Assembly: GCA_000002445.1 (NCBI GenBank)
Contig: CM000208.1
Coordinates: 192,001 to 256,000 of the forward strand
Direction of reading: 5' to 3'
Length of the DNA stretch: 64,000 nucleotides
Origin: Trypanosoma brucei
Lineage: Eukaryota
This document shows, piece by piece, positions 35,201 through 56,474 of this stretch. A program made the position numbers and the translations under genes. The notes beneath the pieces were generated by a model. The model saw only the letters and a list, made by a program, of their open reading frames with translations. It did not search any database and had not been told where the DNA came from. The first letter of the stretch is position 1, and every line of letters starts with the position of its first letter.

Positions 35201-36772
35201 GAGGGTACTAAAGTTCCCATATATGTGGCTACAGCAGAAGAATATGAAGAGGTTCTTGCAGTTATGGGTAAGTTAGAGAGGGAGCGAGATGAGGTACTTC
35301 AGCTGCTTCAAAAGAGTCAGGCCAACTCAGTTTCGACAACGAATAAGGCTACATCAACCAGTTTCATTGATTCACAACACCGGCAGCACAGGGAAGACAC
35401 TGCCGCCTCCCAAACCGTGAGTGTCAACGAATACTCCAGGGTCGTCGCCGAGAAGGAGGGAGCGGAGGCTGAATGTCGGGAAGCTCGGAGGAAACTTCAG
35501 AAGGCCCTTCACGAGTTGGAATCTCTTCAAAAGCTTCATCTTCAAGCTGAGGAAGAGTGGCGTAAAAAATTGAACTCGTCTGGGTATTCAGAGAGCTCAT
35601 GGAGAGGTGGGAAGAAGCCCCTCTTGTCCTTCTATCCTGATGGTGACCCAACACTGCGTGGGTTGGGCAGTGGAGAGCATGTGAAAACCGATGATACGGA
35701 CGCACTGTTGTCGGGTGAGGAGGTTGCAGACCACAGGTTGCGGGGGGGGAGGCGAAATCCCAGTAAAGGTTCCACCACATTCGGAAGCAGCGACCGCACT
35801 GCAAGTGCAGATCAACGCCGCAGCAGGCTGTTGCCCACGGCATCGGATATCGACATCGCTACAGGGCACGTCACTCCTGGTTTAGGGAGTTATTTTCACA
35901 ATCTCGCTGCGAAGGAAGAATATGCTAGTGCTGCCACACAGAATCTGACGCGTCCTGTTGATGTCGGCGCACTAGATTTGAAAACAAGCAAGTTTTCACG
36001 TTACCGATGCATGCTTGGAGAAATGTGGGGTCCGCTGGTAAAACGGTATAGAGCGTTGGTGGAAGACGTCTTTCTCATGGAGGTTTTCCGCGCTACGTCA
36101 ATACCACCTAACTACGTTAAGGGTTTGGAGTTTGGCCGTGGTGGATTGTTCGTAGAGGTTGACATCTATGACGTTCACTCCTGCGAAAATGTTAACCTTT
36201 GCCTGCAGCGCCACAAGTTTAGTGTGTTGGATAAGTTGATTCGTCTCAGTCAAAGCTGCAGTGCAACTGCACATGACCCACATCAATTAGGTGAAGAAAC
36301 GTCGGCCTCACAGCGGGGTCCTGGCTGCGTTGCAGAGAGGAACCTAGGTTTAAATGGCGAAAGTCGCAAATTTTTTCAGCAAACGTCACATTGCATTGAC
36401 GAAGCACAGGCGAAGGAACTTGACGCATTCCGCTGCCGGCGGGCTTTCGCCAACAGTTTACGTCGAGGAGAGGAAACGTTGCGTTCGTTACTTATATCGC
36501 AATCGGAAATCGACCCGAAGGTACCCGTGGATTCGTTAGCATTGCAGCGGGAACCAATTTACTGTGTGACCCTTGACGAGTATCGCTGTGTTTTGAGGCA
36601 ACTTGGTGCTGCAAGTCGACGTGTCACTCAACGCCAACGCGACATCAGCGGTGATGAGCAAACGCGGCTGTGGAACGAACATGTGGTGAAGCAAGCAGAG
36701 AAGGAGCGCCGGTTCGCGCGGAGATTGAGCCATCCCTATCCGCAGTTTGCAAAGGGTAGTCACACTGAATGA
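32264..36772 (+). CDS. WD40-repeat N-terminal domain plus coiled-coil protein (1502 aa), paralog of the preceding gene
   Basis: The N-terminal WD domain has the same order of motifs as the 25408 gene (YSGGEDWKVYQW vs FTGGRDWQIYQW; SGSDDMTIKIWDP vs SGSDDGTVRAWDP). It is followed by a coiled coil with an internal near-perfect ~345-nt duplication. Confidence 0.7.
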   Translation: MAMRRSSPSPRPRVRSASVASIPDTQRCEGILSSRSIAGTARSIEYVGDRCVWAAAVDGRVLVYSLSDGEVVAEAAVRENTFCTVLRLVSRRRIWAGFADGFICCYDSSTANLLNEFVQHDGAVNCLATTPYSEFVYSGGEDWKVYQWLKESCTYVRLFSGHSNAVRCVVAHIVESASTRSVSEGVRSLGDDMYNNEEDEGGEGCNARVNESMEEYIISGSDDMTIKIWDPRAPLQIELNLACLTTLRGHNGGVHSMEVFRRKQELWSGDGEGALRVWDLHDVRKPSCVAVLEGQHSASISSIVRIDSCMWSSGKDSFVVLWDAYEKVALRRFVPGGRAASRPIFVMRRLYRAAHWVIWLGGLDRNIHSLSFAADGDIDGKLLRSEKRCAANKLRYMRLQERTMELCTLVEELEEKNKALETQVQQLNALLHRSLEASQPLDHGSGRSRSAGKGGVTFRRLKSDAEGDKAPSRLAVDTTLKLPSGIASRCSTADPSPEKSFKKDVRAWEKQEKQTITGDISDGQKLIDQMELITSAEFTLQDVSGVDGTSRLAFEAYKKEVELKLAEEELSRQALQRELAEATKYKTMWETKNDALRDAYEQIENLQRNLEGEQRYVNDLLQEMAQLSNKKVRGEGEEDLPCADNRTPTEPRDPSTGYSLYKSIPGNYWDNICTNYPDVLRDTLFSELSELVSSLGAVVTNIAYASTGECLLVEAVVGPTTVGREKMQSCLELHAFPQTRTLHESMSTPFRKDASVKKSEKDNGWKLLVEAKERAEMERDEALAVLQEATDELEAMYEYQRQVEERRAKTPGLCDITALRDQKNSSVTSSTSQACTKVPIYVATAEEYEEVLAVMGKLERERDEVLQLLQKSQANSVSTTNKATSTSFIDSQHRQHREDTAASQTVSVNEYSRVVAEKEGAEAECREARRKLQKALHELESLQKLHLQAEEQRSRTRGLAGSTRLHGRKSTNESLLESREGTKVPIYVATAEEYEEVLAVMGKLERERDEVLQLLQKSQANSVSTTNKATSTSFIDSQHRQHREDTAASQTVSVNEYSRVVAEKEGAEAECREARRKLQKALHELESLQKLHLQAEEEWRKKLNSSGYSESSWRGGKKPLLSFYPDGDPTLRGLGSGEHVKTDDTDALLSGEEVADHRLRGGRRNPSKGSTTFGSSDRTASADQRRSRLLPTASDIDIATGHVTPGLGSYFHNLAAKEEYASAATQNLTRPVDVGALDLKTSKFSRYRCMLGEMWGPLVKRYRALVEDVFLMEVFRATSIPPNYVKGLEFGRGGLFVEVDIYDVHSCENVNLCLQRHKFSVLDKLIRLSQSCSATAHDPHQLGEETSASQRGPGCVAERNLGLNGESRKFFQQTSHCIDEAQAKELDAFRCRRAFANSLRRGEETLRSLLISQSEIDPKVPVDSLALQREPIYCVTLDEYRCVLRQLGAASRRVTQRQRDISGDEQTRLWNEHVVKQAEKERRFARRLSHPYPQFAKGSHTE
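34770..35552 (+). repeat. Near-perfect ~345-nt duplication (34770-35115 and 35207-35552) within the second WD40 coiled-coil gene
   Basis: GTKVPIYVATAEEYEEVLAVMGKLERERDEVLQLLQKSQANSVSTTNKATSTSFIDSQHRQHREDTAASQTVSVNEYSRVVAEKEGAEAECREARRKLQKALHELESLQKLHLQAEE is repeated. Confidence 0.9.
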
Positions 36773-37047: not shown

Positions 37048-37802
37048 CGTATCTTATCTTTTTTTGTTTTCAAACTGTTACAACAGCCTTCTATTCATGG
37101 CATCGCGATATCATTGTTGTTACTACTATTGCATCAAATGTCGGTAGCGTCGGTTTGGATAACTCTGTGTTACCAACTCACTCGAGTCCCTCGCAGTGCA
37201 CCTCTTGTTTTTGTGGAGGACACCAGTGGGGGGGGGGGTGAAATTGAGAGACGAAAAATGCACTCTCCATTTGCTGCCCTCTCCGCCTCCAACTGCCGCC
37301 GATGTTTCTGCGTGGTGCGTGGAAAAGAGAGGGGATTAGCGAGAAGGTGGGGAGGGGAACGGGGAAATAACGAACGGTCAACGATCACTTGTAAAAAGGA
37401 AAAGAAAACGATTGCTTCCGGGCGTGTGTCCGTGTGTGGGAGAGAGAAGGGGAAGGCGAAGCAAAGGAAGTTATTTTCCCCTGTTAGATAACGATCTGGG
37501 AGAAGTGTCTGCATACTCCTTTCTTCCACTATTCCCACTCACTCCGTTCGTTTTGTGTGCGTACTTTTTGGTGGTGATTAGCTAGCGCGTAAATCAAAAG
37601 CTTGAACTTGCGTGTAACACTACTTTTTACACCTCACCCTACTCAGTACAGTTATAATCGTTTATTTATTGTCTTCTTTTTTTAAAAAAAATATTATTAT
37701 TTTAACTTTCCTTTGAACACCCACATTTTATGTCGTTCTGTAGTGGTATTCGCGGTTGTCCAGCAGCGAACGGAAAGAGGAGAGGCAAAGAAAAGGGTGC
37801 TT

Positions 37803-40800
37803 ATGAGCGAGCCCAGGGAAGTGGGCTACCGGCACATTTTAAGATCGGCATCGGCCACCAGCAAAGTGAACGCCAAGAACCGGAGCCCAACCGTAACAAA
37901 GAGTCCCAGCACACCTACCGACAGCCGTGGCGTTAGCGCGGCACGTATGCGTTCCTTCTCAGGATCTAGTGTCGCGAGAGCAAACCCTCGGATCCCACAA
38001 AAAGATGACAGTTCGCGGGAGGAGGTGAGGGCTCTTCGCCTGCTGCTCCGCGAGAGGGAAGAGCAGGTGGAACTACTTCATGCGCTCTTGAGTGAAAAAC
38101 AGTTGTTATTAAATCATAACAAAGCGGCCGAGGAGCGCCTCCGGCAATGTGATGAGCAACTTGGGACTCTTGCGGCCGTGCTCGGACTTGAAATGGAGTC
38201 GCAGGAAAAGGACAATTTGCCCCATACCACGAGGCAGGCGAAAGGGAGTGAACTGGGCACTGTGAAAAAAATGCCGAGCGTTCGTTGCATCTTAGACCGT
38301 GTTCAACAGCTAGTGTACGACAAAACGCACCTGGAAAGCGAACTTGATGTGAAACTCCAGGAACTGGAGTGGGCTCAGACAGAGTTAGAAATGCTGCGTG
38401 GAGGCACCCTTTCACAAAAAGTGTCACTGAAGAACGACGCGGGAAAGTGTGGTTCTTTGGCACAAGAGTTGGAATCACAACTTCGTGTTAACGCTGAACT
38501 TGAAAGAACGCTGGCCGATCTGAAGGAAAAATATATTATGTCGGAGAGGATACTGGAGACTTTGGAGAAGGACCACCATCAGGTAAGTCAGGTGCTACAC
38601 GGAAAGGAAAAGGAAGTTCTGGAATTACAACGTAAGGAACGAAGCGTCGCTGCGGAGTCTAGTAAAAGGCGTGAGTACGAAATCTACCACATGCAGTGGA
38701 AAGAACCGAATAATCTCATCACAACGCATCACCGCTGTCATTTTCGTGGAGATAGCTGGGTAGGCTTGTTACGGGAGAAACCACAGGCAATGCAGGCTGC
38801 TCTTTTGAAGGATATCTCGCTGGAACTCCGTGCCCCGTACGGCTTCATAACCATTGCAACCATGGAATCGGTGTCGGAGCTCGTTGTTTTCGATGTTATC
38901 ATTCGTCATCCCGTTTCACTATCTGAAGATGATGTGGAGTTACGGCTTATTGGATGCTCCTTCGATGAGATGTCACTTCTTCTGAAACAAGCGGAGAATC
39001 CGAAGGAAGGTCATGACCTTGTCCTCCACCAGTTGAAGCTCCTGCAAGGGACTATTGTAAGGAAAGAAGAAGAGATAGCCGCGCTGACAAAGCAATTACG
39101 AACAACTAAATTGTCCCTCGAGGAGAGACAACGGCAGTACGATGAAGAGAGTAAGCTGGTTCATATGGCGCTAGACGAAACGGAGGAGACTGTTAAGGTA
39201 ACGTACAGCGAACTGAAGATGCGTGAGTTGAGGGAAGAAGAGCTGAAACTGCAACTTCAGCAGTGCTCAGAAACAATTTTATCGCGGGACCAACGAATTA
39301 TGGAACTTACAGCGCAGCTGCGTGAGCTTAATAGTACTGTGGCAGAGGAAAGTGAAGAAAATGCAAGGATACGCGATGCTACATGCTCCAACGGCCCCGG
39401 AGACAAACACGATGGAAGATCCGCAGAGGGGAGGAAAAAATGTGTTGAAAATGAAAGCGATGGCCTCTGCGATACTCTAGTGAAGATACCTTCCGTAAAA
39501 ATGCACGTTGTCGAGGCGTCATGGAAAGGATTGGATCCCCTGGCATCGACTGAGGCAGTTATGACGCTTGACTCAAGGGCCCAAAGCATTGTGCGCACTA
39601 TTCTTATCGGTGAGATGGCGACTGTTGCTCACGTCCTTCCCTTGAAAGTTCTTTCACTTCAGTGCACTTGTTGCTCGTTGCGCGCGGAGGTACAAGTACA
39701 CATCAGTTCTCAAGTTGAAGACGCAGACCGTTCAACCGAGGGTCTTGATAAATTCCGCCCAAGAACTACCATCGCTTTCCTGGAGGAGTGGTTCAACATG
39801 CGGGAGCTCATTGAAAGTCGGGGACGGAGGGTGCAATCACTCGCAGATGAGCTCACCAGTTTAAACTTGTCAGTTGCCGCATTTAAAGAAAGCGGTAAGA
39901 AAAATGAAGAGGTAGAAAAGGCAGCTACGACTGGAACCCCTTCATGTGCGGGAGAAACCTCGCAGGGTGATGAAGAGAAAAGGGAAGAAAAAAGGCTGTG
40001 TGAATCACTCGACCAACAACTACGACTGGAGCGTACCCAAGTTCGCACACTACAAGCGGAGAAGCGAGCGAAGGAACTTGCGCTACAACGGGCAAACGAT
40101 AAGTTAAACGAAGTTACTGCTGCATTTGAGGCGTTGCAGTCAAATTTCGCTGGGAGAGATCACCGCCCCACTCGTGACGAAGATGCAAATGCCTGTCGTC
40201 TCGCAGACGTTCAGGCAAAAAGGCGCCACGGGAGGAACCAAAAGGACAACAATATGAAGGGCGTGTGTGACGCAGAGTTGGCGGGAGGAAATGAGTCGTT
40301 GAGGGCAGAAAGGGGGGACGTTTGGTCTGCTCTCGCTGACGCTTATGAGGAGTACGATACCTTATACGAAAGGTACGAAAATGCAATGAAGCAACTTCAG
40401 GACCTGGAGAGCTCGCTCCGGGAAAAACTGTTACTGACGAAGCGGTCTCACGTGTACGAGAAACAAGTCGAGGAGTTGACCCAACAGAAGGAAGCACTCA
40501 TAGCAGAGCAGGAGAAGCAACGCGAGAAGGAGGCTCTATTGCGGGAAACTGTTACTTCACATCAGCGCGATATTGACCGACTACAGAAGGAACTTGATCG
40601 TAAGACAGAGTGGGCAGAGGAGGTTATGCGTCGTCTTGTAGAAGAGGAGGATGAATGCTCCAGATTGGAAGGAGCTGTCAGATCCCTTAAGCAACACTCC
40701 ACGGCGGAGGTAGCGACAAAGGAAAAGGTCGTATCGAATGATTTGAAAACTAAAGACATCCAGCGGGTGCTTTACACCTTTTGTACCACTACCTTGGGAA

Positions 40801-41858
40801 TTGACGTACCAGAGCAAGAGCAGTCCGTGGATGGTGTTCTGGCACTTATTGCTCGCGCCTACGCGAACAAAGCCAGTGGTGCCAGCATGCAAGTGGCGTT
40901 TGCCGATAGGGAAGAGGTGTCAACCGCAATTCAGTCGCTCAATACAGCAGTGCAACTGCTCCAACAGTCTTTACCAACAGTAAGGCGCAGAGCATGCTCC
41001 GATGTAAGAAGTAGAGGACGCGCTGCTGTCGATAACTCACCGCGTAGCTCCCCAACTGGTGTAAGGAAAGTGCCTTCGAGGGGGCGGCCCATGACATTCA
41101 GTGGTAGGGGTGCAACAACATCGCCACCAGTGCGGGCACCACAGATATCTGGAAGGAGGTTGTTGGGGCAAGCAACGCCAATGAGGTCAGCACCAACCAA
41201 CACACCGAAGAGACACAAAACACCACAGCAAGAAAAGGTCAATACCGTAGGTCCTTGTCATCCATTGATATCGAGTGCCACGCGCGTCGTGCAACTTGTG
41301 CAGCAACTGACCGGAACTCCCGTACAGCCGAAGGTAAAGCCTACCAAAACGGCAACCAAACCACTTTCGAATACAGCAGGGGAGGAACTTGCTGAAGAGT
41401 TTGTACGTTGGAGCCGTGAACAAACAATTTCTCTTGCGCTGATTGTTAAGGACTACCTCCACGACGCACTGAGGGCAATGAGTCAAGTAGCGTTAGCTCA
41501 TGATGCAGTAACCACAACATATCAAGGACTACCGGTGGATCACACGCTCAATCTGAACACGGCAAAGAGCTGTGTAACACACGCACTGAAAAGCATCGTG
41601 CAGACCATATCTTCCCTACTCTCACATCGGGAAATAAGTGAGATTGAGGGAAAATTCGGAAAAGATTACCTTTCTATGACTCCTGCGCCACGTGGCAAGA
41701 CAACCAAACAAGAGGATCCGCGCCGTCAGTGTTCTGCTCCCGCCTTGGGTCTCGCCCCGCGTCCCGCTAATATAACGTTGTCATCTGGTGATCATTGCCG
41801 AAGTGTGTCACGGGATGTTGACGGGCTTTCGGTGCGCCCGCAACGAGAGGCCCTCTAA
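37803..41858 (+). CDS. Large coiled-coil protein (about 1351 aa) with a basic Ser/Pro/Arg-rich C-terminal region
   Basis: Continuous ORF with trypanosome-like codon usage. Heptad-rich segments run through most of its length. Around 40980-41350 there is a basic, S/T/P/R-rich low-complexity stretch (SRGRAAVDNSPRSSPTGVRKVPSRGRP...). The first ATG is at 37803; the ORF-track start is TTG. Confidence 0.6.
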   Translation: MSEPREVGYRHILRSASATSKVNAKNRSPTVTKSPSTPTDSRGVSAARMRSFSGSSVARANPRIPQKDDSSREEVRALRLLLREREEQVELLHALLSEKQLLLNHNKAAEERLRQCDEQLGTLAAVLGLEMESQEKDNLPHTTRQAKGSELGTVKKMPSVRCILDRVQQLVYDKTHLESELDVKLQELEWAQTELEMLRGGTLSQKVSLKNDAGKCGSLAQELESQLRVNAELERTLADLKEKYIMSERILETLEKDHHQVSQVLHGKEKEVLELQRKERSVAAESSKRREYEIYHMQWKEPNNLITTHHRCHFRGDSWVGLLREKPQAMQAALLKDISLELRAPYGFITIATMESVSELVVFDVIIRHPVSLSEDDVELRLIGCSFDEMSLLLKQAENPKEGHDLVLHQLKLLQGTIVRKEEEIAALTKQLRTTKLSLEERQRQYDEESKLVHMALDETEETVKVTYSELKMRELREEELKLQLQQCSETILSRDQRIMELTAQLRELNSTVAEESEENARIRDATCSNGPGDKHDGRSAEGRKKCVENESDGLCDTLVKIPSVKMHVVEASWKGLDPLASTEAVMTLDSRAQSIVRTILIGEMATVAHVLPLKVLSLQCTCCSLRAEVQVHISSQVEDADRSTEGLDKFRPRTTIAFLEEWFNMRELIESRGRRVQSLADELTSLNLSVAAFKESGKKNEEVEKAATTGTPSCAGETSQGDEEKREEKRLCESLDQQLRLERTQVRTLQAEKRAKELALQRANDKLNEVTAAFEALQSNFAGRDHRPTRDEDANACRLADVQAKRRHGRNQKDNNMKGVCDAELAGGNESLRAERGDVWSALADAYEEYDTLYERYENAMKQLQDLESSLREKLLLTKRSHVYEKQVEELTQQKEALIAEQEKQREKEALLRETVTSHQRDIDRLQKELDRKTEWAEEVMRRLVEEEDECSRLEGAVRSLKQHSTAEVATKEKVVSNDLKTKDIQRVLYTFCTTTLGIDVPEQEQSVDGVLALIARAYANKASGASMQVAFADREEVSTAIQSLNTAVQLLQQSLPTVRRRACSDVRSRGRAAVDNSPRSSPTGVRKVPSRGRPMTFSGRGATTSPPVRAPQISGRRLLGQATPMRSAPTNTPKRHKTPQQEKVNTVGPCHPLISSATRVVQLVQQLTGTPVQPKVKPTKTATKPLSNTAGEELAEEFVRWSREQTISLALIVKDYLHDALRAMSQVALAHDAVTTTYQGLPVDHTLNLNTAKSCVTHALKSIVQTISSLLSHREISEIEGKFGKDYLSMTPAPRGKTTKQEDPRRQCSAPALGLAPRPANITLSSGDHCRSVSRDVDGLSVRPQREAL

Positions 41859-42989: not shown

Positions 42990-44357
42990 ATGCACGACGG
43001 AGATGGCAATATTGAACTCATCATTGGCCCCATGTTCGCTGGTAAAACAACAGAACTGATGAGACGTGTCCAGCGACACAAACACGCCCAAAGATCATGT
43101 TATATCATCAACTATTCACGAAACAGTTACCAAAATCAGCGACTGTCAACTCACGACCAGCTTTCACTGACTGCCAATGTGTCCATCGCAAAACTTAGTG
43201 AAGTGTGTGATGAATGGCGTGACTACGACGTCATTGCTGTTGACAATGGCCAATTCTTCCCTGATGTTGTGGGTTTCTGTGCACGCGCAGCCAATGAGGG
43301 GAAGACTGTCATTGTGTCAGCACTCGATGTAGACTGCCGAGAAACTCCTTTTGATGAGGTTTGCCGTCTTGTTCCCCGTGCAGAATCAGTGTTGAAACTC
43401 AGTGCCGTATGCATGGAATGTCATGAGCACGATGCTTTCTTAACGTATCGCACCATCGAGAGCAACGAGCGTGAACTATATGGTGGAGCCGACATGTACT
43501 TGGCTGTGTGCAGGTGGTGTTACAAACAACTTACCATGAGCCACGTTGATGCGCAGAAGACATCTGCTTCCACAGCTGCAGTTGTGCCAAATGGTGCACA
43601 CGGTCGCATTGAACTCATCATTGGCCCCATGTTCGCTGGTAAAACAACAGAACTGATGAGACGTGTCCAGCGACACAAGCACGCTCAAAGATCATGTTAT
43701 ATCATCAAGTACACTGGGGACACACGCTACAGTGAAGGTGCTATAACTTCTCACGACCAGCGTGCACTGACTGCCAATGTGTCGGTCTCTAATTTACATG
43801 ACGTGGGTGATGAGTGGCGTAAATACGATGTGATCGCGGTGGATGAGGGCCAATTTTTTCCTGGTGTGGCCGCGTTCTGTTCCAAGGCTGCCGATTCGGG
43901 GAAGGTTGTAATTGTGTCAGCACTTGATGCCGATTACCTACAAGAGCCATTTGAAGAAATTTGCCTTCTTGTTTCCCGTGCTGATTCTGTTGTGAAACTT
44001 AGTGCCGTGTGTATGGAGTGTCACAATCGCAAAGCATCTTTTACATATCGTACTGTGAAGAGTGATGAGCGCAAACTTGTCGGTGGCAGTGATATGTACA
44101 TGTCAGTTTGCAGATCATGTTACGAAACTAAAAGGAATATGGTGCAAACTGAAAAGTACATTTACAGTTGTGTTGGGATCAATGAAGGGAGTTACTCGGA
44201 ATGTTCCCCCGGGCCAAGCGAGCGCAGTTCAGCAGGAACCTCCGGCGTCCAAACTTCCGTCAAGGTGGATGAGCAGAACTGCACTGAACCGAACACAGAA
44301 GCTAAAAAAATGCCTCTGAAGAGAAAAAGAAATCAAATGGCCGTTGATACTACTTAG
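42990..44357 (+). CDS. TK: Thymidine kinase, tandem two-domain (pseudo-dimer) form
   Basis: Two consecutive TK1-type domains. Each has the P-loop IIGPMFAGKTTEL, a VD(N/E)GQFF motif and the Zn-ribbon lasso CMECH...VCRxCY. Domain 1 is about 42990-43560 and domain 2 about 43590-44170. A ~60-aa C-terminal tail follows. Confidence 0.9.
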   Translation: MHDGDGNIELIIGPMFAGKTTELMRRVQRHKHAQRSCYIINYSRNSYQNQRLSTHDQLSLTANVSIAKLSEVCDEWRDYDVIAVDNGQFFPDVVGFCARAANEGKTVIVSALDVDCRETPFDEVCRLVPRAESVLKLSAVCMECHEHDAFLTYRTIESNERELYGGADMYLAVCRWCYKQLTMSHVDAQKTSASTAAVVPNGAHGRIELIIGPMFAGKTTELMRRVQRHKHAQRSCYIIKYTGDTRYSEGAITSHDQRALTANVSVSNLHDVGDEWRKYDVIAVDEGQFFPGVAAFCSKAADSGKVVIVSALDADYLQEPFEEICLLVSRADSVVKLSAVCMECHNRKASFTYRTVKSDERKLVGGSDMYMSVCRSCYETKRNMVQTEKYIYSCVGINEGSYSECSPGPSERSSAGTSGVQTSVKVDEQNCTEPNTEAKKMPLKRKRNQMAVDTT

Positions 44358-45443: not shown

Positions 45444-48400
45444 ATGTTGCACAAACCATGTGTACAGGTGGTTATGCGGTTCCGCCCAAACCCTGGGGTT
45501 GCTTCTCCTTTTTACTCCACAGATGACACGGGTGCACCATGGCTTACGTACGATGAGCGTACCGTTCGTGTCGTGGAACGCGATCCGCCGATGGACCGGA
45601 AACGCGTGGAACCCAATGGGGGCCCTTGCGGTGACAGCAATGACCCCCCAGTTTCAAAAGCGCTCGTTCCAGCGCCTGTAACGAGCTACACGTTTGATGC
45701 AGTGCTCTCCGATACATCAACCCAGCGCGACGTGCACAAATGTGTTGGGGAACCTGTGATCGGTAATGTGCTGAAGGGTTACAATGCTACAATATTTTCC
45801 TATGGGCAAACAGGGAGTGGGAAGACGTATACGATGTTGGGCCCCTACGGGGGGTTGGCTGATGCTTTCTTCGAAGATAGTCCGTTCTATGGCGAGCGAG
45901 GGCTCGTACCGCGAGTAGTGGAAGAGTTGTTTAATCGTTTGAATACCATGAAATCGGAGGAGTACACGTGGCGGGTCAAGACACAAATGTTTGAGATATA
46001 CAGGGAAAATATTGTCGACTTGCTTATCGAAGGAGACCAACAACCTCAGACAGAGTATCGCATAAGGGAAGGCAAAAACAGTCAAGGTAGTTTTTGTATG
46101 TACGTTGACTCTCTAAAGGAGGTTGAATGCCGTACCGCCGCTGATTTCATGGATATACTGCAGAGGGGTGTGGCGAGCAGGCACACACGTGAAACGGGAA
46201 CAAATGACCGCTCTAGTAGAAGTCATTGCCTGCTCTGCTTATTTGTGGAGCTGAAGCACAATGAAGATTACAGTATGTGGACAGAAAGCAGGCTTAACTT
46301 CGTCGATCTTGCAGGCAGTGAACGAGTTGCGACCTCTCAAGCGGAGGGAGAGACCTTAAAAGAAACTCAATACATTAATCTCTCTCTTTCACTTCTAGGA
46401 AATGTTATCCACCGCCTTGCCGGCGGTAACACTGGACACATTCCCTACCGCGATACGAAACTGACACGAGTGTTGAAGGATTCACTCGGTGGTAATTCAC
46501 TGACCACTCTGCTATGTCACGGCACAACCGAAGCTGCAACAAAGAGTCAAACAATTAATACACTTCGATTTGCTCAAAAGGCACTTCGAATAAAAACACG
46601 TGCTGTCGTCAACAAACCATCGAAAACAACGATCAAACAACAACAGCAGGAGTTCTACAAGGAACACACAAAACAGTTGGAAAAACAAATAAGAGTTTTG
46701 CAAGAAATTATTAGAAGCCGGGAAAACACGGAAGGTGAAAATTCTATGTGCGCAAAATGTGAGAGCATGAGTGCTACGATCGCGTCATTAACAAAAGAAA
46801 TTGAAAGACTTCAGAAAGAACTTATAGCAAGAGAAGAACAGCTACAGCAAACGCAGGAAACAGGAGACTACTACAAAAAGAACTGCGAAACCCTCGAAAA
46901 CGAACTAGCAAAACTGACAGAGGAGCAAGAAGCAAACGACGCAAGGCACATCGAAGCATACACAATTCTTGAAGAAGAAAGTGAGAACCTCAGGGCTGAA
47001 ATTGAAGCGCTACAAAAGCAATTAGCAGAGAAGCCACACAAGGACGCATCCAACTCCGAAGCTCTTTCCAACAAAAATAATACGCGGAAAAATAATTATA
47101 ATGATTATAAAAACCGCGCTACTATGACAGATCGTCGAACACACTCAAATTGTTGCACAATGACTGACCCTGTTACAATTGTTATGCCTGATGTCATGGA
47201 GGATATGCAACGCCGTCTAACAAAGGAACTTATCAACTGTGGTACGATGACAGATATCCGTTCACACTCAAATTGTTGCACAATGACTGACCCTGTTGCA
47301 ATTGTTATGCCTGATGTTATGGAGGATATGCAACGCCGTCTAACAAAGGAACTTATCAATTGTGGAACAATGACGGATATCCGTTCACACTCAAATTGTT
47401 GCACAATGACTGACCCTGTTGCAATTGTCATGCCTGATGTTATGGAGGATATGCAACGCCGTCTAACAAAGGAACTTATCAATTGTGGTACGATGACAGA
47501 TGGCACCATCTCCACTAACCGCGCTACTATGACAGATTGTCGAACACACTCAAATTGTTGCACAATGACTGACCCTGTTGCAATTGTCATGCCTGATGTT
47601 ATGGAGGATATGCAACGCCGTCTAACAAAGGAACTTATCAACTGTGGCACAATGACGGATATCCGTTCACACTCAAATTGTTGCACAATGACTGACCCTG
47701 TTGCAATTGTTATGCCTGATGTTATGGAGGATATGCAACGCCGTCTAACAAAGGAACTTATCAACTGTGGCACAATGACGGATATCCGTTCACACTCAAA
47801 TTGTTGCACAATGACTGACCCTGTTGCAATTGTCATGCCTGATGTTATGGAGGATATGCAACGCCGTCTAACAAAGGAACTTATCAACTGTGGTACGATG
47901 ACAGATGGCACCATCTCCACTAACCGCGCTACTATGACAGATCGTCGAACACACTCAAATTGTTGCACAATGACTGACCCTGTTGCAATTGTTATGCCTG
48001 ATGTTATGGAGGATATGCAACGCCGTCTAACAAAGGAACTTATCAACTGTGGCACAATGACGGATATCCGTTCACACTCAAATTGTTGCACAATGACTGA
48101 TCCTGTTGCAATTGTCATGCCTGATGTCATGGAGGATATGCAACGCCGTCTAACAAAGGAACTTATCAATTGTGGTACGATGACAGATGGCACCGTCTCC
48201 ACTAACTGCGCTACTATGACAGATCTTCGTTCACACTCAAATTGTTGCACAATGACTGACCCTGTTGCAATTGTCATGCCTGATGTCATGGAGGATATGC
48301 AACGCCGTCTAACAAAGGAACTTATCAACTGTGGCACAATGACAGATGGCACCATCTCCACTAACCGCGCTACTATGACAGATCTTCGTTCACACTCAAA

Positions 48401-51400
48401 TTGTTGCACAATGACTGACCCTGTTGCAATTGTCATGCCTGATGTTATGGAGGATATGCAACGCCGTCTAACAAAGGAACTTATCAATTGTGGTACGATG
48501 ACAGATGGCACCGTCTCCACTAACTGCGCTACTATGACAGATCTTCGTTCACACTCAAATTGTTGCACAATGACTGACCCTGTTGCAATTGTTATGCCTG
48601 ATGTTATGGAGGATATGCAACGCCGTCTAACAAAGGAACTTATCAATTGTGGCACAATGACAGATCTTCGTTCACACTCAAATTGTTGCACAATGACTGA
48701 CCCTGTTGCAATTGTTATGCCTGATGTTATGGAGGATATGCAACGCCGTCTAACAAAGGAACTTATCAATTGTGGTACGATGACAGATGGCACCGTCTCC
48801 ACTAACTGCGCTACGATGACGGATATCCGTTCACACTCAAATTGTTGCACAATGACTGACCCTGTTGCAATTGTCATGCCTGATGTTATGGAGGATATGC
48901 AACGCCGTCTAACAAAGGAACTTATCAATTGTGGTACGATGACAGATGGCACCGTCTCCACTAACTGCGCTACTATGACAGAGGTTTGCCGTCAATCTAA
49001 TTCGCTTGATCGGCGTGTGTCTTGTGTATCGGGTACCGCTGAAAATGTGTCGTTGAGTGGGGAAACGTTTTGTAGGAATACATCTGTGAATACCCGTGAG
49101 TGTTCATATATTGCACGAAACACCATATTTGCTTCGAGTGTTGTTTCTTCATTTGTCCCCGTAATTGGGGAAGGACAGTTTGAGTGGTGGTGTTTGGACG
49201 ATGTGTATGCTCATGCTCTTTTGTTTTCTTACTGCAATCCACGCGATGTGGGTATCAATATTGGCTTGTTCGATGACTGTGATGATAAGGTGCTTTTGCA
49301 ATCTCTTGGAGTTGTTCATAGAACACTTGGCTCCATTCGTGCTGATTATGATGGCAGCGTCGTCTCGGTTATTCGTAGGTTTTTGGTTCAGCAACGCGGT
49401 GCCCTTGCAGGAGACGGCGCTCTTGAAGGTTGTGTGCCGTGCGAGGCTCTATTCGAGGTTCTTATATCTGCCAAAAATGCACTCTTGGTGGAGCCAATGG
49501 TCAGCGACTCCTCTACTGTGAAGGGGGAAGATAGGGTTTGTCACGGTGATGGAGAAGGTGCACTTGACAGCTGCGTATATGCTCACTTGCAAGTGGCGAT
49601 GACCGCCGTCTTCAGCATTGCACGTGAGCGCGGTGGATATTTGTCGGATATTTTCGCATCTGTGAAGGTTCAGAAAGCACTCGAAGCAATGCGTCAGTTC
49701 TTCACTTCCAGCAATTTATTTTCGAGTGGAAGTAGCAGCGTTTCTAGTACCTCCGAGGCCAACGGAGATAGTAGCAGCTTCCTCGAAGACATGCTGAGGG
49801 AAACAGAGGTCCCGCGTTTTGTACTAGGAGGTGCATTGCAACGGGCAGCCGCGCTGCTCAAGGATGATGTGGTGACCAAATTGCAGAGGCGGAGATTGTG
49901 TGGCGGACTCTCGTTGGAGGAGGCCCTTCTTGCGTGTTATTTGGCTGAAGAAAGAATCACCGCCCTCACTGAAATCGAAAATTTGAGAGAAGAAATGGTA
50001 CAGCCTGTTACACGCGAAGCGCTGGATTTAATTGACGGTGCGGTGAGGGCTTTTCTCAAGAGTGAAGAGTCCGAGGATTTCTCCGCTGAAGCCACAAACC
50101 ACATGAAAAGCAGCTCCTTCACTACCGCACTGGCATTTCTCTTCACGTACGTCGCTGCTCAAACAGCGACTGAAACCGTCGGGCTTCCTCAAGATAGCAC
50201 AGAACATGTTAGAGATGCGCTAAATGTAGTTGCGCAGACACTACTAAGGCGTTCAGTGTCACAAACTTCAAGATTTGATGTAGCACAGAGTAATACAGCG
50301 ATAGACCCAGAAAGCATGCAACAATCGTTGAGGATTATAATGGATTATGCGGAAAGTCAAGGTTACTACCCAGTCACATGCGATACGTCAGAAGCAGGCA
50401 GCCGGTCCAATCATCACTGCCAGTACTCCCAGCAAACCCGTAGAAAGGACACGCCCGACATCGACGTCACGAAAAGGGAGGCACTTATGGAAAAAATGGA
50501 TTCGCCTCGTACCACTCCAAGAAGTTCACCGCACCCTCGGTTATCCTCGCCACAAGAGCAACGACCTCAAACGAGCGTGGTTGTAGTATCGCAACCAAAT
50601 GTAACAAGCCACCACATCAACAACCTCGTTCACAGAGGAAGGATGACTAACCCTGTTGCAATTGTTATGCCTGATGTCATGGAGGATATGCAACGCCGTC
50701 TAACAAAGGAACTTATCAATTGTGGTACGATGACAGATGGCACCATCTCCACTAACCGTGCTACTATGACAGATCTTCGTTCACACTCAAATTGTTGCAC
50801 AATGACTGACCCTGTTGCGATTGTTATGCCTGATGTCATGGAGGATATGCAACGCCGTCTAACAAAGGAACTTATCAATTGTGGAACAATGACGGATATC
50901 CGTTCACACTCAAATTGTTGCACAATGACTGACCCTGTTGCAATTGTCATGCCTGATGTTATGGAGGATATGCAACGCCGTCTAACAAAGGAACTTATCA
51001 ATTGTGGTACGATGACAGATGGCACCATCTCCACTAACCGTGCTACTATGACAGATCTTCGTTCACACTCAAATTGTTGCACAATGACTGACCCTGTTGC
51101 AATTGTTATGCCTGATGTTATGGAGGATATGCAACGCCGTCTAACAAAGGAACTTATCAATTGTGGAACAATGACGGATATCCGTTCACACTCAAATTGT
51201 TGCACAATGACTGACCCTGTTGCAATTGTTATGCCTGATGTCATGGAGGATATGCAACGCCGTCTAACAAAGGAACTTATCAATTGTGGAACAATGACGG
51301 ATATCCGTTCACACTCAAATTGTTGCACAATGACTGACCCTGTTGCAATTGTCATGCCTGATGTTATGGAGGATATGCAACGCCGTCTAACAAAGGAACT

Positions 51401-54113
51401 TATCAATTGTGGAACAATGACGGATATCCGTTCACACTCAAATTGTTGCACAATGACTGACCCTGTTGCAATTGTTATGCCTGATGTCATGGAGGATATG
51501 CAACGCCGTCTAACAAAGGAACTTATCAATTGTGGAACAATGACGGATATCCGTTCACACTCAAATTGTTGCACAATGACTGACCCTGTTGCAATTGTTA
51601 TGCCTGATGTCATGGAGGATATGCAACGCCGTCTAACAAAGGAACTTATCAATTGTGGAACAATGACGGATATCCGTTCACACTCAAATTGTTGCACAAT
51701 GACTGACCCTGTTGCAATTGTTATGCCTGATGTTATGGAGGATGTGCAACGGCGGCCATCAAACAGACTTGATGCTTCCACCTCATTAAAGGTGAGCAAA
51801 AACAATGGCGACGTGGCTGTGTACGAAGCTGTTCGCTTTGGTGACGAAAAAGTAGTGGTGGATAGTTGTTCTGTGGCGTCAGTGAGTGATAGTTTCCCGC
51901 GGGATTTGTCAAGTGAGGTGGGTAAACTTCAGTTAAGGGTACTAGATCTCGGGAAAGAGGTTTACATGCTTCAGAAAGAACTTATGGCAAGAGAAGAACA
52001 GCTACAGAAAACGCAGGAAAGGGCAGACTACTACAAAAAGAACTGCGAAACCCTCGAAAACGAACTAGCAAAACTGACAGAGGAGCAAGAAAGAAACGAC
52101 GCAAGGCGTACCGAAGCATACACCATTCTTGAAGAAGAAAGTGAGAACCTCAGGGCTGAAATTGAAGCGCTACAAAAGCAATTAGCAGAGAAGCCACACA
52201 AGGACGCATCCAACTCCGAAGCTCTTTCCAACAAAAATAATACGCGGAAAACGGATAGCGACCACGCTGTTGACGGGAAGGAAAATTTGGGTCTTCATCA
52301 TGTGTCCTCTGTGAGATCACTAGTTCACTTGAGGGAAAATAAAGCAAGGGAACATCTTCGAAGTCGTTCGTTGTCCAATGGCAGGGAGCCCCCTGGTGGT
52401 GTTCTACCTACCGAGCTGAGGACATGGCCGCAGACGGCGCAGCAAAGTGCCCCCGCTGCTTGCACCCATGAAAAAGGTGTGGAACGAAAACTTTCAGAGG
52501 AACTCGATGAGAGCGACGTCGTGAACCACCTCACCGCTCAGGCAACTCCTGAAATGCTGAATCTGAAACCCGAACTATTTGTAAAAAACCCTGCTTCGTT
52601 CGATCGTTTGGTGTCATATCTTACGCGACTCGTAGAAAGGGCTGAAAGGGAACCCGGAGCGCTGAGTTGTGAGGAAAGACACCTTTCTGAGGTATTGAAG
52701 GTGTTCTCCACTTTTTACTGTGGTTATCGTTCCATTGAAAGTGGTACCGGCACTTGTCCCATTGTTGATGGGAATCTGCGTTCACGCGGTGGGAGTTCAC
52801 ATTCACTGCGTCCTAGGGCAAAAGGAATGTGGTCTCCAGAATCCTTGCGGGTTTCCCCTGATGTTGGAAGGAACGTTGACGCTGTGAAGGAAGACCAAAA
52901 TGGTAAGCATCTCGGCCCAGTGCCTTCCGCAAGTACGACATTTCGAACCGGGCGTTCTGAGAGGTGTACTTCCTCCGTTCGTGGCGTGGCGTTGGTGGGT
53001 GGGCTTTTGGCGTCGAGGAGACGCTCGTCAACTGCTCCTTCACCGACAGAGGGGCCGCGGGTCCCTCTGCAGAGGGAAGAAATAGAAGACCTGGAGGGAA
53101 TGTCAGAGTTGGTGTCTTCCATCGAGGACATGCAGTCGCAGTTAGCCTACTTCAATTTTAGCAATGAGCCAGAGCTGAGGGAGTCCATCAAGCAACTGCA
53201 ACAGCACCTCGAGGAACTCAGAGCAGTCCTGGAGAGCCAAATGTCAACGACAAAAATGTCACGATCACCCTCCTATATATCTAGTTTCAGGGGAAGCTGC
53301 TTCTCACAGGGTAACCAACAGGGTCAAGGTGTGCAAGAGGGGAAGCCACCACTAAAAGCAGAAAGCAACGGATGTCAACCTGCGACCGACAGCGCGTGTG
53401 ATACAAATTATTCAAACGGTGGCCAGACAGGCTATTTAGCTGTATGTAATGCTGTAAACACTTGCTGTGGAGGGAGAGGTGCGTTCCATCGTGGTTCGAA
53501 TAGATGCTCCCACTGGGTACCACTGAGAATGCACAGGGCAAATCACGATGAGAACGTCGGGTTGGCGATGAATGAGCCTGGTGGCTCTATTCCTCAAGGA
53601 CGGTCAAATGCTTTTGACGACGGCTCGCAACGCAAGTGTATGGCGCCGAATCGACGCAACCAGAGTGCAGTGATGAGGCGGTTGCTGGACTCTATGCGAT
53701 TTGACCTTGACTCGTATGTGTACACGGCTGCCGAACAGAATGCCGCTAGCGCTGCTTTGCTAGAGGAATCGTCTTCTCTCAAGGAAAGAGAAGCAGATAT
53801 GTGGTTACGTCTCAACCAAACAGAGTTCTGCGAGATGGCAAGGATAGAAATGAGGCTGAAAAGGGATGACTTACGGGAGCTTCAGCATGAAATCCACCGC
53901 ATGCACTTGTTGCACGATAAAGAACTCGTAGAGCGGAAACGGAGGTTGTTGATTTATTCCTATAGAAAATTGCTGGATTTTGCAAAGCGAATGTCCGATA
54001 TTCTTAAGGCACGCGAGTTCTGTACGGGCACGCTGGAAAGCCAGCGGCTGCTGCTATTAGACGAAACGTCAGATTTCACAAAAGATGTAGAAAAGTACAT
54101 TGAGGTTCTGTAG
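45444..54113 (+). CDS. Kinesin-like motor protein (2889 aa) with two internal arrays of Cys-rich 41/53-aa tandem repeats
   Basis: N-terminal motor domain with SYGQTGSGKTYTM (P-loop), NxxSSRSH (switch I) and DLAGSE (switch II). Neck coiled coil from about 46600 to 47090. Repeat arrays at about 47110-48990 and 50640-51745. Long unique C-terminal region. One ORF is uninterrupted from ATG 45444 to TAG 54113. Confidence 0.8.
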   Translation: MLHKPCVQVVMRFRPNPGVASPFYSTDDTGAPWLTYDERTVRVVERDPPMDRKRVEPNGGPCGDSNDPPVSKALVPAPVTSYTFDAVLSDTSTQRDVHKCVGEPVIGNVLKGYNATIFSYGQTGSGKTYTMLGPYGGLADAFFEDSPFYGERGLVPRVVEELFNRLNTMKSEEYTWRVKTQMFEIYRENIVDLLIEGDQQPQTEYRIREGKNSQGSFCMYVDSLKEVECRTAADFMDILQRGVASRHTRETGTNDRSSRSHCLLCLFVELKHNEDYSMWTESRLNFVDLAGSERVATSQAEGETLKETQYINLSLSLLGNVIHRLAGGNTGHIPYRDTKLTRVLKDSLGGNSLTTLLCHGTTEAATKSQTINTLRFAQKALRIKTRAVVNKPSKTTIKQQQQEFYKEHTKQLEKQIRVLQEIIRSRENTEGENSMCAKCESMSATIASLTKEIERLQKELIAREEQLQQTQETGDYYKKNCETLENELAKLTEEQEANDARHIEAYTILEEESENLRAEIEALQKQLAEKPHKDASNSEALSNKNNTRKNNYNDYKNRATMTDRRTHSNCCTMTDPVTIVMPDVMEDMQRRLTKELINCGTMTDIRSHSNCCTMTDPVAIVMPDVMEDMQRRLTKELINCGTMTDIRSHSNCCTMTDPVAIVMPDVMEDMQRRLTKELINCGTMTDGTISTNRATMTDCRTHSNCCTMTDPVAIVMPDVMEDMQRRLTKELINCGTMTDIRSHSNCCTMTDPVAIVMPDVMEDMQRRLTKELINCGTMTDIRSHSNCCTMTDPVAIVMPDVMEDMQRRLTKELINCGTMTDGTISTNRATMTDRRTHSNCCTMTDPVAIVMPDVMEDMQRRLTKELINCGTMTDIRSHSNCCTMTDPVAIVMPDVMEDMQRRLTKELINCGTMTDGTVSTNCATMTDLRSHSNCCTMTDPVAIVMPDVMEDMQRRLTKELINCGTMTDGTISTNRATMTDLRSHSNCCTMTDPVAIVMPDVMEDMQRRLTKELINCGTMTDGTVSTNCATMTDLRSHSNCCTMTDPVAIVMPDVMEDMQRRLTKELINCGTMTDLRSHSNCCTMTDPVAIVMPDVMEDMQRRLTKELINCGTMTDGTVSTNCATMTDIRSHSNCCTMTDPVAIVMPDVMEDMQRRLTKELINCGTMTDGTVSTNCATMTEVCRQSNSLDRRVSCVSGTAENVSLSGETFCRNTSVNTRECSYIARNTIFASSVVSSFVPVIGEGQFEWWCLDDVYAHALLFSYCNPRDVGINIGLFDDCDDKVLLQSLGVVHRTLGSIRADYDGSVVSVIRRFLVQQRGALAGDGALEGCVPCEALFEVLISAKNALLVEPMVSDSSTVKGEDRVCHGDGEGALDSCVYAHLQVAMTAVFSIARERGGYLSDIFASVKVQKALEAMRQFFTSSNLFSSGSSSVSSTSEANGDSSSFLEDMLRETEVPRFVLGGALQRAAALLKDDVVTKLQRRRLCGGLSLEEALLACYLAEERITALTEIENLREEMVQPVTREALDLIDGAVRAFLKSEESEDFSAEATNHMKSSSFTTALAFLFTYVAAQTATETVGLPQDSTEHVRDALNVVAQTLLRRSVSQTSRFDVAQSNTAIDPESMQQSLRIIMDYAESQGYYPVTCDTSEAGSRSNHHCQYSQQTRRKDTPDIDVTKREALMEKMDSPRTTPRSSPHPRLSSPQEQRPQTSVVVVSQPNVTSHHINNLVHRGRMTNPVAIVMPDVMEDMQRRLTKELINCGTMTDGTISTNRATMTDLRSHSNCCTMTDPVAIVMPDVMEDMQRRLTKELINCGTMTDIRSHSNCCTMTDPVAIVMPDVMEDMQRRLTKELINCGTMTDGTISTNRATMTDLRSHSNCCTMTDPVAIVMPDVMEDMQRRLTKELINCGTMTDIRSHSNCCTMTDPVAIVMPDVMEDMQRRLTKELINCGTMTDIRSHSNCCTMTDPVAIVMPDVMEDMQRRLTKELINCGTMTDIRSHSNCCTMTDPVAIVMPDVMEDMQRRLTKELINCGTMTDIRSHSNCCTMTDPVAIVMPDVMEDMQRRLTKELINCGTMTDIRSHSNCCTMTDPVAIVMPDVMEDVQRRPSNRLDASTSLKVSKNNGDVAVYEAVRFGDEKVVVDSCSVASVSDSFPRDLSSEVGKLQLRVLDLGKEVYMLQKELMAREEQLQKTQERADYYKKNCETLENELAKLTEEQERNDARRTEAYTILEEESENLRAEIEALQKQLAEKPHKDASNSEALSNKNNTRKTDSDHAVDGKENLGLHHVSSVRSLVHLRENKAREHLRSRSLSNGREPPGGVLPTELRTWPQTAQQSAPAACTHEKGVERKLSEELDESDVVNHLTAQATPEMLNLKPELFVKNPASFDRLVSYLTRLVERAEREPGALSCEERHLSEVLKVFSTFYCGYRSIESGTGTCPIVDGNLRSRGGSSHSLRPRAKGMWSPESLRVSPDVGRNVDAVKEDQNGKHLGPVPSASTTFRTGRSERCTSSVRGVALVGGLLASRRRSSTAPSPTEGPRVPLQREEIEDLEGMSELVSSIEDMQSQLAYFNFSNEPELRESIKQLQQHLEELRAVLESQMSTTKMSRSPSYISSFRGSCFSQGNQQGQGVQEGKPPLKAESNGCQPATDSACDTNYSNGGQTGYLAVCNAVNTCCGGRGAFHRGSNRCSHWVPLRMHRANHDENVGLAMNEPGGSIPQGRSNAFDDGSQRKCMAPNRRNQSAVMRRLLDSMRFDLDSYVYTAAEQNAASAALLEESSSLKEREADMWLRLNQTEFCEMARIEMRLKRDDLRELQHEIHRMHLLHDKELVERKRRLLIYSYRKLLDFAKRMSDILKAREFCTGTLESQRLLLLDETSDFTKDVEKYIEVL
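46790..47095 (+). repeat. About 300-nt segment duplicated at 51965-52260 (coiled-coil module flanking the kinesin repeat arrays)
   Basis: KEIERLQKELIAREEQLQQTQETGDYYKKNCETLENELAKLTEEQEANDARHIEAYTILEEESENLRAEIEALQKQLAEKPHKDASNSEALSNKNNTRK recurs near-identically at 51965-52260. Confidence 0.85.
47110..48990 (+). repeat. In-frame tandem repeat array 1 inside the kinesin gene (13 units; 123-nt and 159-nt variants)
   Basis: The unit encodes MTDIRSHSNCCTMTDPVAIVMPDVMEDMQRRLTKELINCGT (41 aa). The long variant inserts MTDGT(I/V)STN(R/C)AT (12 aa). Units are more than 95% identical at the nucleotide level. Confidence 0.9.
50640..51745 (+). repeat. In-frame tandem repeat array 2 inside the kinesin gene (about 9 units of the same 123/159-nt family)
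   Basis: Same repeat family as 47110-48990. It is separated from array 1 by a ~1.65-kb unique segment. Confidence 0.9.
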
Positions 54114-56116: not shown

Positions 56117-56474
56117 CTATCCTTTTTTCTTCCTATTTCAAGTTGGATGTGCGTTCGGCACAGCGCGAGTAACATCCGTCAAATTTAGTCGGAGCAACCT
56201 CTCTCACCTTGTCTTTGTTGTGGTGGCGGTTGTGTTTGTGTGCCGCTTTTGCGAGCATTTCCACTTATTCCTTAACTCGTGAAAATGTTGTGTCTGGCAT
56301 CAAGCTGCTCCTCCTCGTGCCACTTCCCCCCTGTAGAGGTAATACACATTTCACCCCGCACAGCCACACAAACACAAAATATACATTAGCAGAAAAGGGG
56401 GACTCCAAGTGTTTTGTATATTTGCCTATATACACACATTGAACAAATACGCTGTTTTACATGAAAATTGGATT

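What the first reader, a model, noticed from the sequence alone, without database searches (positions are those of the whole stretch)
42990..44357. Tandem pseudo-dimeric thymidine kinase whose N-terminal domain lacks the catalytic glutamate
Two complete TK1-type domains are fused in one ORF. Both keep the P-loop and the Zn-binding CxxC...CxxC lasso. Domain 1 reads AVDNGQFF (43233-43256) where domain 2 reads AVDEGQFF (43836-43859). The Glu in this motif is the catalytic base of TK1-family enzymes. Domain 1 is therefore predicted to be inactive and domain 2 active. This fits published work on the T. brucei tandem TK, and it supports assigning this window to a T. brucei-like genome. Nucleoside-analogue activation makes it of drug-target relevance.
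Basis: partly seen in the sequence, partly recalled or inferred. Interest (0 to 1): 0.5.

Follow-up and report, generated by a model that had tools for sequence, protein, structure and literature searches.

The report
Known Trypanosoma brucei tandem thymidine kinase

Summary
The ORF at 42990-44357 (+) encodes a 455-aa protein with two complete TK1-type domains. Both have a P-loop and four zinc cysteines. Domain 1 reads AVDNGQFF and domain 2 reads AVDEGQFF. The only slip is that the domain 1 motif lies at 43236-43259, not 43233-43256.

N86 aligns with the catalytic-base glutamate: human TK1 E98, Leishmania TK E85 and TbTK E286. The protein is 100% identical to T. brucei brucei TREU927 thymidine kinase (XP_822346.1). 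Domain 2 equals PDB 5FUV/5FUY, deposited as the "catalytic domain", except for one residue (G292 here, D in the PDB chains).

Published work already states that the N-terminal domain is inactive, that the C-terminal domain is the kinase, that the protein is a pseudodimer, and that E286A abolishes function.

Domain 1 has lost more than the Glu. The hTK1 D58 equivalent is Asn45. The R60 equivalent is deleted. The thymine-stacking F128/Tyr316 position is Cys116. A single N-to-E swap is therefore unlikely to revive it.

One small extra: a 104-nt tract covering the P-loop and helix 1 is 97% identical between the two domains, against 73% elsewhere. This suggests intragenic gene conversion.

Verdict: already known, low interest.

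The parts
42990..44357 (+). Complete CDS of T. brucei thymidine kinase (Tb927.10.880), 455 aa plus stop
   Evidence: ORF; 100% identity and coverage to XP_822346.1 / Q38CF2; gene id from PMC6686228
43005..43526 (+). Domain 1 (aa 6-179): TK1-type pseudokinase domain, catalytically dead
   Evidence: inactivity from the literature
43026..43049 (+). Domain 1 P-loop GPMFAGKT (aa 13-20), intact
43122..43127 (+). Domain 1 N45-S46, in place of the D-T-R of active TK1s. The hTK1 D58 equivalent is Asn and the R60 equivalent is removed by a one-residue deletion
43245..43247 (+). Codon AAT = Asn86 at the catalytic-base position (hTK1 E98 / TbTK E286)
43335..43337 (+). Cys116 of domain 1, at the position of hTK1 F128 and TbTK Tyr316 (thymine-stacking residue by my own knowledge of hTK1 structures)
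43410..43520 (+). Domain 1 zinc/lasso region from C141xxC144 to C174xxC177, intact
43527..43601 (+). Inter-domain linker (aa 180-204). It has the lowest-confidence residues of the AlphaFold2 model: the 10-residue block aa 191-200 has mean pLDDT 58
43602..44126 (+). Domain 2 (aa 205-379): the active TK1 catalytic domain. It equals PDB 5FUV/5FUW/5FUX/5FUY except that residue 292 is Gly here and Asp in the PDB chains
43623..43646 (+). Domain 2 P-loop GPMFAGKT (aa 212-219)
43719..43727 (+). Domain 2 D244-T245-R246, equivalent to hTK1 D58-T59-R60, intact
43845..43847 (+). Codon GAG = Glu286, the catalytic base / proton acceptor
   Evidence: PMC5098729
44010..44120 (+). Domain 2 zinc/lasso region from C341xxC344 to C374xxC377
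44127..44354 (+). C-terminal tail (aa 380-455), a non-TK extension. It ends in the basic stretch KKMPLKRKR (aa 439-447, nt 44304-44330), which I read as NLS-like (inference)
   Evidence: sequence; TbTK reported as nuclear and cytosolic in PMC6686228
43011..43114 (+). Domain 1 copy of a 104-nt near-identical tract (P-loop plus helix 1). It is 97% identical to 43608-43711
43608..43711 (+). Domain 2 copy of the same near-identical tract

Best explanation
The locus is the single-copy thymidine kinase gene of Trypanosoma brucei brucei TREU927 (Tb927.10.880). One polypeptide carries two TK1-type domains that pack as an intramolecular pseudodimer. Domain 2 (aa ~205-379) is the kinase. [quoted passage not shown] Domain 1 (aa ~6-179) keeps the fold, the P-loop and the zinc lasso. 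It has lost the phosphoryl-transfer and sugar-binding residues: Glu to Asn86, Asp to Asn45, and the Arg deleted. It therefore acts as a covalently attached, catalytically dead partner. It takes the place of the second subunit of an ordinary TK1 dimer and raises the substrate affinity of domain 2.

Shown here: gene identity, domain architecture, residue losses, and a confidently packed two-domain model.

Taken from the literature: inactivity of domain 1, activity of domain 2, the affinity effect, and the essentiality of E286.
For: - The protein is 100% identical over 455 aa to TREU927 TK.
- It has two PF00265 stretches, 371 bits in total.
- Domain 2 is identical to PDB 5FUV/5FUY, deposited as 'catalytic domain of Thymidine kinase from Trypanosoma brucei', at 181 of 182 residues.
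- N86, N45 and the deletion are invariant in T. b. gambiense, T. equiperdum and a second T. brucei isolate.
- The AlphaFold2 model of aa 1-384 has pLDDT 92.5 and pTM 0.90. Two equal-sized domains could not reach that pTM without a confident mutual orientation.

Literature:
[quoted passage not shown] It also names E286 as proton acceptor and shows that E286A fails to rescue.
- PMC10208901: the C-terminal domain holds the activity and the N-terminal domain helps substrate binding.
- PMC9190010: TbTK is a monomeric pseudodimer whose first part is inactive because it lacks important residues.
- PMC4433323: LmTK E85 is the catalytic base.
Against: Nothing found here contradicts it. There are three limits. 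The primary biochemical paper (Ranjbarian et al. 2012, JBC 287:17628) and the structure paper (Valente et al. 2016) are not held in the library, so their results are cited second-hand. No full-length experimental structure exists in the PDB copy searched; only domain 2 is solved. The pseudodimer packing therefore rests on the AlphaFold2 pTM and on published hydrodynamic data, and I could not inspect the predicted interface.
Confidence: 0.93

Rival explanations
1. Domain 1 is not just a scaffold but a ligand-binding regulatory pseudokinase. It would still bind a nucleotide or nucleoside (ATP, or the feedback inhibitor dTTP, or dThd) through its intact P-loop and lasso, and would modulate domain 2 allosterically.
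For: The P-loop GPMFAGKT, with its Lys and Thr, is intact. Most base-pocket residues are retained (hTK1 M28, F101, L124, F133, T163, R165, Y181 equivalents), as are all four zinc Cys. The P-loop/helix-1 segment is kept 100% identical in protein to that of the active domain by an apparent gene-conversion tract. The AlphaFold2 model of domain 1 is as confident as that of domain 2.
Against: The 3'-OH ligand (D58 equivalent) and the R60 equivalent are gone, and one stacking residue is Cys116. The reviews consulted describe only a stabilising and affinity-enhancing role. A conversion tract can be neutral. No binding data were available to me.
Confidence: 0.05
2. Domain 1 is a functionless relic of a duplication, decaying neutrally, effectively a fused pseudogene.
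For: It has lost three or four active-site residues. Outside the conversion tract it is only 59% identical to domain 2.
Against: The reading frame is intact. All fold-determining and zinc-binding residues are kept. The model is high-confidence. Only one substitution (E143K) occurs in domain 1 across four T. brucei-group sequences. The literature reports that domain 1 improves substrate affinity.
Confidence: 0.01
3. Domain 1 is still a kinase that uses another residue (for example the neighbouring Asp85) as general base, perhaps on a different substrate.
For: Asp85 and the P-loop are present. TbTK has a broader substrate range than LmTK and phosphorylates purine deoxynucleosides (PMC4433323).
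Against: Published single-domain expression found the N-terminal domain catalytically inactive. E286A alone abolishes rescue in vivo. D58 and R60 are also lost.
Confidence: 0.01

Closest known systems
Trypanosoma brucei thymidine kinase TbTK (Tb927.10.880; XP_822346.1 / UniProt Q38CF2; PDB 5FUV, 5FUW, 5FUX, 5FUY for domain 2)
   Same: It is the same gene: 455 of 455 residues identical. The alleles E143, T242 and G292 match TREU927 specifically.
   Different: Nothing. The PDB constructs carry D292 rather than G292, as in the T. b. gambiense sequence.
Human cytosolic TK1 (PDB 1XBT, 1W4R, 2ORV) and Leishmania major TK (4UXH/I/J)
   Same: Each Tb domain has the same alpha/beta core plus zinc lasso. 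Identity to hTK1 is about 49-50% and to Leishmania (L. donovani) TK about 57-59%. Domain 2 has every catalytic residue. Foldseek gives TM-scores of 0.89-0.98 normalised to the target.
   Different: These are single-domain enzymes that form dimers and tetramers (PMC9190010 for the mammalian enzyme; PMC4433323 for LmTK). TbTK is a fused two-domain monomer with one dead half.
Other tandem TK1s: T. congolense multi-domain TK, Trichomonas/Tritrichomonas and Giardia two-domain TKs
   Same: Two or more TK1 modules in one polypeptide, at least one of them degenerate (PMC10208901; PMC9190010).
   Different: In trichomonads and Giardia the degenerate module is the C-terminal one and is far more divergent, with no zinc Cys and an altered P-loop neighbourhood. 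In T. congolense the variant domains carry E to G, not E to N, and keep D58. T. congolense domains cluster together with 100% bootstrap, apart from the T. brucei pair. The arrays are therefore either independent duplications or homogenised within each species.

Membership tests
TK1-type (type II) thymidine kinase, Pfam PF00265 | Profile match above the curated threshold, for each domain | tested here: met
   PF00265 scores 371.2 bits against a cut-off of 20.6, in two stretches. A custom HMM gives 292 bits for domain 1 and 321 bits for domain 2.
TK1-type (type II) thymidine kinase, Pfam PF00265 | P-loop GxxxxGK[ST] | tested here: met
   GPMFAGKT is present in both domains.
TK1-type (type II) thymidine kinase, Pfam PF00265 | Structural zinc site with four Cys flanking the lasso (hTK1 C153, C156, C185, C188) | tested here: met
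   C141/144/174/177 and C341/344/374/377 fall in those alignment columns.
TK1-type (type II) thymidine kinase, Pfam PF00265 | Catalytic-base Glu (hTK1 E98) - domain 2 | tested here: met
   E286 is in that column. Its function is supported by the E286A result in PMC5098729.
TK1-type (type II) thymidine kinase, Pfam PF00265 | Catalytic-base Glu (hTK1 E98) - domain 1 | tested here: not met
   N86 is in that column. Domain 1 is a member by homology and fold, but it is not an active enzyme.
TK1-type (type II) thymidine kinase, Pfam PF00265 | hTK1 D58 / R60 hairpin residues (3'-OH and phosphate contacts) | tested here: not met
   Domain 1 has N45 and a one-residue deletion. Domain 2 has D244 and R246. 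The feature is therefore met for domain 2 only.
TK1-type (type II) thymidine kinase, Pfam PF00265 | TK1 three-dimensional fold | tested here: met
   The AlphaFold2 model has pLDDT 92.5. Foldseek against 5FUY gives TM 0.98 and rmsd 0.8 A, and against hTK1 gives TM 0.93-0.96. Foldseek reports one local match per target, and the identity values point to domain 2. Domain 1 has the same order of secondary-structure elements.
TK1-type (type II) thymidine kinase, Pfam PF00265 | dThd/dUrd phosphorylation activity | not testable with these tools
   Taken from the literature: activity lies in the C-terminal domain and the N-terminal domain is inactive.
T. brucei tandem TK pseudodimer (Ranjbarian et al. 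2012) | Sequence identity with the characterised protein | tested here: met
   100% identity over 455 aa to the TREU927 entry. The other three T. brucei-group sequences each differ from it at one or two positions, at three variable sites in all.
T. brucei tandem TK pseudodimer (Ranjbarian et al. 2012) | The two domains pack against each other within one chain | tested here: inconclusive
   A pTM of 0.90 for the 384-aa two-domain model implies a confident relative orientation. I could not inspect the interface or the PAE, and no full-length experimental structure is in the PDB copy.

The most novel reading that the evidence does not exclude
Domain 1 is a ligand-binding regulatory pseudokinase rather than a passive scaffold. 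Its intact P-loop and lasso would still bind ATP, dTTP or dThd. The 104-nt tract (43011-43114 vs 43608-43711) that keeps the P-loop and helix 1 identical to those of the active domain would reflect selection, through recurrent intragenic gene conversion, to preserve that binding site or the helix-1 interface.
Probability: 0.15. Interest if true: 0.35.

Novelty: already known. Interest (0 to 1): 0.1.

Why it matters
TbTK is essential for dTMP synthesis in T. brucei because the parasite lacks dCMP deaminase (PMC5098729). It activates nucleoside analogues, so it is a real drug target. All of this, including the dead N-terminal domain and the role of E286, is already published. Re-finding it in a genome scan adds no new biology. 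Its main value is as a positive control: the first-stage reader identified a real pseudoenzyme fusion and the organism from raw sequence. The two small additions made here would matter only to specialists designing domain 1 revertants or studying how tandem TKs evolved. These are the fuller list of active-site losses in domain 1 and the probable gene-conversion tract.

Tried and rejected
- I tried to read the primary paper (Ranjbarian et al. 2012) by DOI and by PMC id. It is not held.
- I searched for Valente et al. 2016, the TbTK structure and cell-cycle paper. Only papers citing it are held.
- A search combining 'pseudo-dimer' and 'domain 1' returned only irrelevant papers.
- The look-up of encoding contigs found no record for the exact protein. 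I established identity through the listing of cluster members instead.
- The bacterial-code ORF caller starts the ORF at TTG 42984. I rejected that start in favour of ATG 42990, which reproduces the annotated 455-aa protein exactly.
- I considered that the Asn might not sit at the catalytic position. Three independent alignments rejected this: phmmer to 5FUV and to LmTK, and a MAFFT alignment of 26 domains.
- I considered that the high 5' similarity of the two domains could be protein-level constraint only. The excess is at synonymous sites, so I rejected that: 29 of 31 identical codons in the tract against 42 of 80 elsewhere, Fisher p = 2e-5.

Full report
**1. What is in the sequence**

Window 42990-44357 (+) is an uninterrupted ORF of 455 codons plus a stop. 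An in-frame stop lies upstream at 42921. The bacterial-code ORF lister begins it at TTG 42984. ATG 42990 is the biologically relevant start, because the product from that ATG matches the database protein over 100% of its length.

Pfam PF00265 (thymidine kinase) matches at 371 bits in two stretches. The two halves align with each other over 174 residues at 67% protein identity and 74% DNA identity. Both carry the P-loop GPMFAGKT (aa 13-20 and 212-219). Both carry two CxxC pairs: C141/C144 + C174/C177, and C341/C344 + C374/C377.

AVDNGQFF is at 43236-43259. The Asn86 codon is AAT at 43245-47. The Glu286 codon is GAG at 43845-47.

**2. Is the Asn at the catalytic-base position?**

Yes.
- A phmmer alignment of isolated domain 1 to PDB 5FUV/5FUY (T. 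brucei domain 2) and to 4UXH/4UXJ (L. major TK) places N86 opposite the Glu of DEGQFF.
It matches PDB 2ORV chain A residue for residue, apart from that construct's KEN-to-AAN change.
- A MAFFT alignment of 26 individual TK domains then puts N86 in the hTK1 E98 column and E286 in the same column.
- PMC5098729 calls TbTK E286 the proton acceptor and shows that E286A cannot rescue TK RNAi cells.

**3. Domain 1 has lost more than the Glu**

The same alignment shows three further changes in domain 1.
- N45 sits at the hTK1 D58 position.
- A one-residue deletion removes the hTK1 R60 equivalent. Domain 1 reads YSRNS-YQ where domain 2 reads YTGDTRYS.
- Cys116 sits where active kinetoplastid TKs have Tyr and hTK1 has F128.

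The following are retained: the P-loop; the equivalents of F101/F102, L124, F133, T163, R165, G176 and Y181; and all four zinc cysteines.

[quoted passage not shown] From memory, which I could not check, the 2012 abstract says three conserved active-site residues are missing. That would fit D58, R60 and E98.

These lesions are fixed. They are identical in T. b. gambiense DAL972, T. equiperdum and a second T. brucei isolate. The only differences among the four sequences are E143K, T242A and G292D.

**4. Identity of the gene and the organism**

The protein is 100% identical over 455 aa to 'thymidine kinase, putative [Trypanosoma brucei brucei TREU927]'. Its accessions are EAN77518.1, XP_822346.1 and UniProt Q38CF2, and it lies on a 4.05-Mb contig. 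The three polymorphic positions match TREU927 specifically. The gene id Tb927.10.880 is given in PMC6686228.

Residues 203-384 equal PDB 5FUV/5FUW/5FUX/5FUY at 181 of 182 positions. Those entries are titled 'catalytic domain of Thymidine kinase from Trypanosoma brucei'.

All ORFs of 200 aa or more that look real lie on the + strand. This fits a trypanosomatid polycistronic unit.

**5. How it works**

The published account is as follows.
[quoted passage not shown] - The enzyme is monomeric, whereas mammalian TK1 exists in a dimer-tetramer equilibrium (PMC9190010).

As an independent check I modelled aa 1-384 with AlphaFold2 on a 46-sequence alignment. Mean pLDDT was 92.5 and pTM was 0.90. Only the linker was weak: the aa 191-200 block has mean pLDDT 58. 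Two equal-sized domains can only reach a pTM that high if their mutual orientation is confidently predicted. This agrees with a packed pseudodimer, but I could not inspect the interface. Both domains show the same order of secondary-structure elements.

Shown here: identity, architecture, residue losses, and a compact two-domain prediction. Taken from the literature: enzymatic inactivity of domain 1, the affinity effect, and essentiality.

**6. Comparison with other tandem TKs**

Among kinetoplastids, T. cruzi, T. vivax, Leishmania and Bodo have single-domain TKs.

The T. congolense sequences are multi-domain. One 637-aa record has three domains. Some of its domains read DGGQFF (Glu to Gly) but keep D58.

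Trichomonad tandem TKs have an active N-terminal domain and a much more degenerate C-terminal one that lacks the zinc cysteines. Giardia is reported to have the same orientation.

I built an NJ tree on the part of the domain outside the conversion tract described in section 7.
- TbD1 and TbD2 pair with 72% bootstrap support.
- All T. congolense domains form their own clade at 100%.
- TbD1-TbD2 identity there (59%) is no higher than either domain's identity to T. cruzi TK (58-60%).

The duplication is therefore either old or followed by fast divergence. The T. brucei and T. congolense arrays are either independent duplications or have been homogenised within each species.

**7. A small extra observation**

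Nucleotides 43011-43114 and 43608-43711 are 97% identical. The next 300 nt are 73% identical. This tract covers beta-strand 1, the P-loop and helix 1.

The excess is at synonymous sites. Among residues identical in both domains, 29 of 31 use the same codon inside the tract, against 42 of 80 outside it (Fisher p = 2e-5). Protein-level constraint alone does not explain that. A recent intragenic gene-conversion event is the simplest reading.

I found no mention of this in the papers consulted, but I did not have the primary paper. It is a minor point.

**8. Verdict**

The feature is already known in detail: genetics, kinetics, and crystal structures of the active domain.

Interest is low. The residual open question is whether domain 1 still binds a nucleotide and has a regulatory role, rather than being a passive partner. 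I give that about 15%.

Noticed in passing
window 43011-43114 and 43608-43711: A 104-nt tract (P-loop and helix 1) is 97% identical between the two TK domains, against 73% for the rest. The excess is at synonymous sites (Fisher p = 2e-5), which suggests recent intragenic gene conversion.
   Followed up: partly
P0002, P0016, P0096 (T. congolense TK records; not in the window): T. congolense multi-domain TK has domains reading DGGQFF (catalytic Glu to Gly), and one with KDKGY (R60 equivalent to Gly). This is a different way of inactivating a repeat from the T. brucei Asn. All T. congolense domains cluster together (100% bootstrap), apart from the T. brucei pair.
   Followed up: partly
window 45444-54113 (+): A 2889-aa ORF has an N-terminal kinesin motor domain (PF00225, E = 4e-93). 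It carries two long blocks of near-perfect 123/159-nt coding repeats (about 47112-48982 and 50643-51751), with the unit ...CCTMTDPVAIVMPDVMEDMQRRLTKELINCGTMTD.... The long minus-strand ORFs at 47105-48961 and 50630-51805 lie within these repeat blocks and are probably repeat artefacts (inference, not tested).
   Followed up: partly
window 32264-36772 and 37713-41858 (+): Two adjacent large ORFs (1502 and 1381 aa) both carry the Pfam FAZ1_cons domain (PF23398). The first also has N-terminal WD40 beta-propeller matches. They may be paralogous neighbours related to the flagellum attachment zone.
   Followed up: no
window 56409-58865 (+) and 59409-60302 (+): A PIF1-like helicase ORF (PF05970, E = 2e-31), followed by an ORF with a ribosomal L1p/L10e-family domain.
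   Followed up: no
window 43416-43418, 43713-43715, 43863-43865 (codons 143, 242, 292): These are the only protein differences among four T. brucei-group TK sequences: E143K, T242A and G292D. The window carries the TREU927 combination. The PDB constructs carry D292.
   Followed up: yes
window 44304-44330 (aa 439-447): A basic stretch, KKMPLKRKR, lies near the C-terminus of the non-TK tail and looks like a nuclear localisation signal. TbTK is reported to be both nuclear and cytosolic (PMC6686228). I did not test the link.
   Followed up: no
window 1-64000: All substantial non-repeat ORFs lie on the + strand (18 ORFs of 200 aa or more, of which the only two on the minus strand fall inside the kinesin repeats). 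This is typical of a trypanosomatid polycistronic transcription unit.
   Followed up: no
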